From assembly GCA_964016885.1 (NCBI GenBank), contig OZ024745.1, positions 62,001 to 126,000 of the forward strand: a stretch of 64,000 bases of DNA, given 5' to 3'. Positions 19,347-19,451 of the stretch are shown piece after piece. The translations under genes and the position numbers were made by a program. Under the pieces are notes generated by a model. The model was not told the origin of the DNA, searched no databases, and saw only the letters and a program-made list of their open reading frames with translations. The stretch is from Eledone cirrhosa (taxonomy: Eukaryota). Position 1 is the first letter of the stretch. Every line of letters begins with the position of its first letter.

Positions 19347-19451
19347 AGTGTTGGTCTGTCCCATCGTGTGGTTCTGCTGTGATGGTTAACATAATAGAGT
19401 CGACCGTTAGCATCCACGCGTTCTTCCCAGCCAGGGGGAAGCATATTATTA
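19347..19451 (-). CDS. NEDD4: Second WW-domain exon ([36 protein letters not shown]), 105 nt, phase 2-2
   Basis: Long pyrimidine tract, then cgttacag|TAATAATATGCTTCCCCCTGGCTGGGAA...CCAACACT|gtgagt; complete WW motif; this frame is not in the ORF track. Confidence 0.93.

What the first reader, a model, noticed from the sequence alone, without database searches (positions are those of the whole stretch)
19347..19451. Extra WW domain on its own symmetric cassette exon directly after WW1
Seen: a 105-nt phase 2-2 exon encoding a complete WW domain ([30 protein letters not shown]) only about 6 residues after WW1 and before the RRHIS linker exon. It closely resembles WW1 and ends at the same position and phase. 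Known: in vertebrate NEDD4/NEDD4L, WW1 is followed directly by the RRHIS linker. Inference: a partial exon duplication created a tandem WW1a-WW1b pair that can be included or skipped in frame, tuning avidity for PPxY substrates. The peptide is conserved while the codons have diverged, which suggests selection.
Basis: partly seen in the sequence, partly recalled or inferred. Interest (0 to 1): 0.72.

Follow-up and report, generated by a model that had tools for sequence, protein, structure and literature searches.

The report
Swappable WW exon in octopus NEDD4
The octopus NEDD4 ubiquitin ligase gene has a small exon for a second substrate-binding WW domain that database isoforms either include or skip; it likely arose by an ancient duplication shared by molluscs, annelids and their kin, and splicing it likely changes which WW domain sits next to the enzyme's brake helix.

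Summary
The exon is real: 105 nt, AG/GT, phase 2-2, one full WW domain. Its peptide is 34/34 identical to Octopus NEDD4 proteins. Forms with and without it are on record for O. sinensis, a cuttlefish, unnamed Logan contigs, Patella and Gigantopelta. No RNA reads could be laid here.

It is not an octopus novelty and not a fifth domain. The order WW-WW-linker-WW-WW holds in 43 of 46 lophotrochozoan records, and a tandem pair also occurs in two tapeworms. These animals have four WW domains in all and none at the vertebrate WW2 position. The echinoderm, insect and gnathiferan records have three. Vertebrates and a tunicate carry their fourth after the linker.

The cassette copy, not the upstream one, keeps the loop motif of the single outgroup WW1 (32 of 37 against 3 of 37). 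Both splice forms leave one WW at the same distance from the linker helix. In human NEDD4/NEDD4L the WW before that helix helps lock the HECT domain. Splicing therefore likely swaps the lock-position WW as well as adding a PPxY site; this is untested. Verdict: a new variant of a known kind, not found in print in my searches.

The parts
19347..19451 (-). 105-nt phase 2-2 cassette exon encoding the second WW domain, the copy next to the linker
   Evidence: peptide 34/34 in O. sinensis, O. vulgaris and O. bimaculoides records; absent from XP_036355889.1 and CAE1291889.1
23314..23501 (-). Upstream exon ending in the first WW domain (WW1a), phase 0-2; present in all cephalopod isoforms that span the region
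7221..7374 (-). Linker exon with the RRHISQED motif; predicted helix, matching the autoinhibitory L region of human NEDD4L
   Evidence: alignment to 9gik; helix 351-371 in the model; L region contacts described in PMC12106849
19452..23313 (-). 3,862-nt intron between WW1a and the cassette, with high-copy repeats
7375..19346 (-). 11,972-nt intron between the cassette and the linker exon; no further WW exon found
4100..4135 (-). 36-nt phase 0-0 small exon (TRTLPEEDTSSP) after the linker exon
33802..56903 (-). Four upstream NEDD4 exons of the C2 domain and the C2-WW linker (about 56903-56862, 37734-37672, 36629-36519, 33915-33802; tblastn limits, not splice sites)

Best explanation
This is an in-frame WW exon of octopus NEDD4 that database isoforms include or skip; it likely arose by tandem duplication of WW1 in an early spiralian ancestor, and its splicing likely swaps which WW domain sits before the brake helix while adding or removing one predicted PPxY-binding site. 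Shown: the exon, its phases, both isoforms in databases, the same Trp-to-linker distance in both forms, and the spread of the two-WW order. Inferred: the duplication copied the 3' part of the WW1 exon with its phase-2 donor, so either copy joins the linker exon in register. The linker-side copy kept the ancestral loop motif, as expected if it kept the job of packing on HECT, while the upstream copy drifted. With the exon, the conserved copy would lock HECT and the upstream copy would be free to bind substrates or adaptors, as in the WW1-WW2-linker layout of WWP1/WWP2/ITCH. Without it, the drifted copy would have to do both, which would change basal activity or the ease of activation. Odds: exon real and alternatively spliced in cephalopods about 0.9; ancient WW1 duplicate independent of vertebrate WW2 about 0.8; measurable effect on autoinhibition about 0.4.
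For: Exon anatomy. Isoform pairs differing by these 35 residues only: O. sinensis X1/X5, cuttlefish CAE1291886.1/CAE1291889.1, Logan P0003/P0028; 35-residue deletions of the same domain in Patella X1/X3 and Gigantopelta X1/X2. Seven of 8 Logan records of that cluster skip it; their 2.6-3.5 kb contigs hold a whole reading frame that spans over 56 kb here, so they are inferred to be spliced transcripts. Order WW-WW-linker-WW-WW in 43 of 46 lophotrochozoan records and a tandem pair in 2 of 2 tapeworm records; three WW in 11 of 11 named echinoderm records, a stick insect, Seison, an acanthocephalan and Creolimax; WW-linker-WW-WW-WW in Styela. Motif D[AGS]N[GDE]R: cassette position 32 of 37, single outgroup WW1 16 of 19, upstream copy 3 of 37, chordate WW1 0 of 8, chordate WW2 0 of 8. 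Cassette copies score higher on the outgroup WW1 profile than on the chordate WW2 profile in 34 of 37; 14 of 19 outgroup WW1 prefer the cassette profile. Trp-to-linker-motif distance is 31 in both octopus forms and 29-33 in three vertebrate records. In human NEDD4L, WW1 covers the ubiquitin exosite and the linker holds the HECT hinge; WW1 mutations N205A/R208A/H214A raise activity (PMC12106849, passages). Deleting WW1 or the linker activates Nedd4/4L (PMC6639328, passages; linker also PMC10933555, passages).
Against: No RNA run of this organism was available, so splicing in this species is not shown. RefSeq isoforms are gene-model predictions whose reads I did not see. Only 1 of 11 records in the Octopus/Argonauta cluster skips the exon, and no skip form appears among informative records of Haliotis (15), Mytilus (15), scallops (15), oysters (14), Lineus (9), Littorina (6), Biomphalaria (4) or Elysia (4). 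The WW tree is unresolved: 40 of 59 inner branches open, neither copy forms a clade, and 8 upstream copies sit with chordate WW1 at SH-aLRT 86. Against chordate profiles alone the octopus cassette scores slightly higher on WW2 (70.8) than on WW1 (66.7), and WW1 beats WW2 in only 17 of 37 cassette copies. Both octopus copies keep the Arg and His that match human R208 and H214, so either may lock HECT equally well. Chordate WW1 locks HECT without the DANGR motif (0 of 8), so the motif is not needed for locking. The two human studies disagree on which HECT site WW1 binds. No cnidarian, amphioxus, hemichordate or nematode was identified among my records, and a sponge and three unnamed records have 5-6 WW domains in other layouts.
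Confidence: 0.6

Rival explanations
1. Avidity only: the cassette adds a fourth PPxY-binding site in tandem with WW1, and autoinhibition is unchanged because either copy locks HECT equally.
For: The octopus cassette keeps the second Trp and the His of the binding groove (role of these residues from general knowledge of WW domains). The cores are 4 residues apart in 35-37-residue spacing in most records (23 of 37 at 33-37). Both copies keep the Arg and His matching human R208 and H214.
Against: The spacing is loose in bivalves (39-106 residues). The four pteriomorph bivalves examined have lost the His in the linker-side copy yet keep the domain and most of its loop motif, which suggests a role other than canonical PPxY binding. 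It does not explain why the linker-side copy keeps the outgroup motif.
Confidence: 0.25
2. The two-WW-before-linker layout is ancestral for the NEDD4 family, as in WWP1/WWP2/ITCH, and was kept in spiralians but lost elsewhere.
For: WWP/ITCH-type representatives have WW-WW-linker-WW-WW (PMC12106849). The octopus upstream copy scores higher on the WWP WW1 profile and the cassette on the WWP WW2 profile.
Against: Across 37 species there is no such preference (18 and 19 of 37). It needs separate losses in gnathiferans, arthropods, echinoderms, chordates and Creolimax.
Confidence: 0.07
3. The exon is effectively constitutive in octopus and skipping is rare splicing noise tolerated because the frame is kept.
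For: 10 of 11 records in the Octopus/Argonauta cluster include it; no skip form in bivalve, Haliotis or Lineus records.
Against: Skip forms occur in octopus, cuttlefish, Patella and Gigantopelta, and in 8 of 11 records of the cuttlefish-like cluster.
Confidence: 0.08

Closest known systems
Human NEDD4L (Nedd4-2) isoforms with varying numbers of WW domains (Itani et al. 2003; title seen only in the reference list of PMC8950476; paper not held)
   Same: Alternative splicing changes the number of WW domains in a NEDD4-type ligase.
   Different: From recall, the human variants drop WW2 or WW2-3, which lie after the linker. Here the optional WW lies before the linker, and skipping puts a paralogous WW in its place in register.
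Autoinhibited human Nedd4-2 (PDB 9gik; PMC12106849) and Nedd4 WW1-L lock (PMC6639328)
   Same: C2, HECT, last two WW domains and the RRHIS linker align with the octopus protein; a WW directly precedes the linker at a similar distance.
   Different: Human proteins have one WW before the linker and three after; the octopus has two (or one) before and two after.
WWP1/WWP2/ITCH WW2-L lock
   Same: Layout WW-WW-linker-WW-WW, with the WW preceding the linker binding HECT.
   Different: A separate gene lineage (NEDD4b in PMC2837046). The octopus protein's best PDB matches are NEDD4L/NEDD4, so the shared layout is inferred to be convergent.
RefSeq isoform models of Octopus sinensis NEDD4 (X1 XP_029648340.1, X5 XP_036355889.1)
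   Same: The same exon, included and skipped.
   Different: Automatic annotation only; no study of it turned up in my searches.

Membership tests
NEDD4/NEDD4L orthologue (C2-WW-HECT) | C2 domain, WW domains and HECT domain in one gene | tested here: met
   C2 and three WW exons on C5; last WW and HECT exons on contig C608 at 67-97% identity to the O. bimaculoides protein. The assembly splits the gene.
NEDD4/NEDD4L orthologue (C2-WW-HECT) | RRHIS-type linker after the first WW region and closest match to NEDD4/NEDD4L rather than WWP or SMURF | tested here: met
   tested with the O. sinensis protein, which matches the window's exons at 92-100%.
WW domain, PPxY-binding type | Two Trp, aromatic pair, His and three-stranded sheet | tested here: met
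   Sequence; strands 317-321, 327-331, 336-338 at pLDDT about 80 in the O. sinensis model.
WW domain, PPxY-binding type | Binds PPxY peptides | not testable with these tools
   Needs a binding assay.
Chordate NEDD4 WW2 | Lies after the linker, before WW3 | tested here: not met
   The cassette lies before the linker; 0 of 163 records with the vertebrate-type linker motif have two WW before it.
Chordate NEDD4 WW2 | Groups with WW2 by sequence | tested here: inconclusive
   Tree unresolved, nearest rows are other cassette copies and outgroup WW1; outgroup WW1 profile beats WW2 in 34 of 37, but chordate WW1 beats WW2 in only 17 of 37.
Cassette (skipped) exon | Symmetric phase, canonical splice sites, frame kept on skipping | tested here: met
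Cassette (skipped) exon | Both junction types in transcripts | tested here: inconclusive
   Both forms in database proteins of related species; no RNA reads for this organism.
WW-L autoinhibitory lock | WW directly before a helical linker with the HECT-contacting motif | tested here: met
   Helix 351-371 predicted; motif aligned to human L region; distance kept in both forms.
WW-L autoinhibitory lock | WW and linker pack on HECT and lower activity | not testable with these tools
   Needs biochemistry or a structure; the full-length model has pTM 0.38 and does not place the domains.

The most novel reading that the evidence does not exclude
A splice switch kept from an early spiralian duplication exchanges the WW domain in the autoinhibitory lock of NEDD4, toggling the ligase between a tightly locked ITCH/WWP-like four-WW form and a differently locked three-WW form in a tissue-specific way in cephalopods and some gastropods.
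Probability: 0.3. Interest if true: 0.65.

Novelty: new variant of a known kind. Interest (0 to 1): 0.42.

Why it matters
If the reading holds, the four-WW NEDD4 of molluscs and of vertebrates was reached twice from a three-WW ancestor, so numbering WW1-4 across phyla compares domains that are not equivalent. It would also give a natural pair of isoforms that differ only in which WW precedes the brake helix, a clean test of how much the identity of that WW sets HECT autoinhibition, a point on which two human studies differ. The concept of WW number varied by splicing is known, and the isoforms are already in automatic annotations, which limits the surprise.

Tried and rejected
Expression: the run search listed no RNA holder; the three runs are contigs of one sample with intron sequence, so no junction counts. 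This says nothing about expression. Complex prediction of HECT with the WW-WW-linker piece: no verdict, score 0.00 in two runs, alignment not used. Full-length AlphaFold2 model: pTM 0.38, usable for secondary structure only, so no fold search and no second model. WW tree: the 257-row run timed out; the 62-row tree was unresolved. dN/dS: no orthologous DNA; the metagenome scan gave 8 loci at 53-65% (one 91% over 11 residues), none close, and I did not study them further. Assembly duplication rejected: the copies are 63 of 98 identical in DNA and both occur in other species. Mutually exclusive splicing rejected: the phases differ (0-2 against 2-2) and both domains occur in one protein. Cephalopod-specific origin rejected. 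Splicing-factor motif counts near the exon showed nothing notable and had no control. Earlier findings of this scan: none by sequence or words.

Full report
Observation. The upstream WW exon ends at the same position and phase, and the linker exon begins in phase 2. Both joins are free of stops. No third WW exon lies in the window. Contigs from three runs of one sample cover the exon with no differences.

Identity. The peptide is 34 of 34 identical in O. sinensis, O. vulgaris and O. bimaculoides NEDD4 records, 33 of 34 in Argonauta and 32 of 34 in a cuttlefish; the next exon is 48, 44 and 39 of 51 identical in O. sinensis, Argonauta and the cuttlefish. The window is thus part of an octopus NEDD4 gene. 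C2 exons lie upstream in the window and the next WW exon just beyond it. The last WW and HECT exons are on another contig, C608.

Is it skipped? O. sinensis X1 and X5, two cuttlefish models, and Logan P0003 and P0028 each differ by these 35 residues only, with the Arg expected from the 23314>7374 join. Patella X1/X3 and Gigantopelta X1/X2 differ by a 35-residue deletion of the same domain; their exon limits are inferred from protein only. Tally of records read: Octopus/Argonauta 10 include, 1 skip; cuttlefish-like cluster 3 and 8; Patella 2 and 1; Gigantopelta 1 and 1; no skip form among informative records of Haliotis (15), Mytilus (15), scallops (15), oysters (14), Lineus (9), Littorina (6), Biomphalaria (4), Elysia (4), Mya (2). 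At most 15 members per cluster were listed (15 of 25 for Haliotis, 15 of 17 for scallops, 15 of 159 for oysters). RefSeq isoforms are predictions; the Logan contigs are inferred to be transcripts from their length. No RNA run was available for this organism.

How widespread? Of 46 non-vertebrate records (named molluscs, annelids, a brachiopod and nemerteans, plus unnamed look-alikes; records, not species), 43 have two WW before the linker and two after. One has three before (Pinctada), one is the Gigantopelta skip form and one lacks the linker exon. The Tubulanus record among the 43 is aberrant. Two tapeworm records also have a tandem pair. All 11 named echinoderm records, a stick insect, Seison, an acanthocephalan and Creolimax have three WW. 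Styela has one before and three after, as do 157 of 163 records with the vertebrate-type linker motif, and none of the 163 has two before. A sponge and three unnamed records have five or six in other layouts. By parsimony the ancestor had three, spiralians duplicated WW1 after the gnathiferan split, and tunicates plus vertebrates gained WW2 separately. This is inference; no cnidarian, amphioxus, hemichordate or nematode was identified among my records.

Which copy is conserved? For 37 species (one record each; Pinctada, Tubulanus, duplicates and unnamed records left out) the loop motif D[AGS]N[GDE]R occurs in 32 linker-side copies and 3 upstream copies. It occurs in 16 of 19 single WW1 domains of three-WW outgroups, which I picked for having three WW, and in 0 of 8 chordate WW1 and 0 of 8 chordate WW2. 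The linker-side copy is closer to outgroup WW1 in 28 of 37 species by identity and 27 of 37 by profile; related species are not independent counts. Against this, chordate profiles alone do not separate WW1 from WW2 for these copies (17 of 37; octopus cassette 66.7 against 70.8 bits), the profiles differ in depth, and the tree of 31 columns is unresolved.

Mechanism. The linker exon matches the L region of human NEDD4L and is predicted helical. In the Nedd4-2 cryo-EM study, WW1 covers the ubiquitin exosite, L holds the HECT hinge, and WW1 mutations raise activity; in WWP1/2 and ITCH the WW preceding L does this (PMC12106849, passages). Deleting WW1 or L activates Nedd4/4L, though that study places WW1 at another HECT site (PMC6639328, passages). 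The linker is also inhibitory in PMC10933555 (passages). In octopus the last Trp of the linker-side WW is 31 residues from the linker motif in both forms. So skipping does not remove the lock position; it refills it with the more drifted copy. I infer that the include form has a conserved locking WW plus a free WW, and that the skip form has one WW doing both. Both copies keep the residues matching human R208 and H214, and chordate WW1 locks without the loop motif, so the swap may be neutral for activity; I put an effect on autoinhibition at about 0.4.

Known or new. WW number varied by splicing is known for human NEDD4L (title seen in a reference list; paper not held; details recalled). A survey of animal HECT ligases notes only minor variation, such as lack of one WW (PMC2837046, passages). 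A mussel HECT survey says nothing on WW order in the passages seen (PMC11353290); PMC8961608 (passages) notes human isoform variation only. Seven searches of the open library (listings seen) turned up no paper on this duplication or cassette. Subscription journals are not covered and no supplements were read; figures and supplements of PMC2837046 and PMC11353290 may show the domain layout.

Verdict. Real, conserved and already present in automatic annotation; an ancient clade-wide layout and not an octopus oddity; a new variant of a known kind with a testable twist. Interest 0.42.

Noticed in passing
L007:291-398 (minus strand; C5, just beyond the window's low end): The WW3-equivalent domain is also on a symmetric exon (108 nt, phase 0-0), and O. 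sinensis isoform X6 (XP_029648362.1) skips exactly these 36 residues, so two of the four WW domains are optional in octopus models.
   Followed up: partly
G000:C5:1-60290 and G000:C608:22430-36386: The NEDD4 gene is split by the assembly: the last WW and HECT exons lie on the small contig C608 and were not found in the 60 kb of C5 below the WW3 exon.
   Followed up: partly
window 4100-4135 (minus): 36-nt phase 0-0 exon with no counterpart in the cuttlefish-like proteins, some of which carry other short inserts at this place; possibly another variable exon.
   Followed up: no
window 23502-23504 (minus): Tandem acceptor (AAG CAG) before the WW1 exon; O. sinensis X1 and X2 differ by one Gln at this place.
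   Followed up: no
P0066, P0072, P0073, P0075: In the four pteriomorph bivalves examined, the linker-side WW has lost its conserved His and the upstream WW has a one-residue loop insertion.
   Followed up: no
P0051 (Pinctada): Three WW domains before the linker, the last two nearly identical: a recent further duplication or an assembly artefact.
   Followed up: no
P0002, P0023 (O. bimaculoides): These models replace the RRHIS linker exon with an unrelated stretch, probably a gap-related annotation error.
   Followed up: no
window 21472-22139, 22975-23308 and 15942-16062: Very high-copy repeats in the introns flanking the cassette.
   Followed up: no
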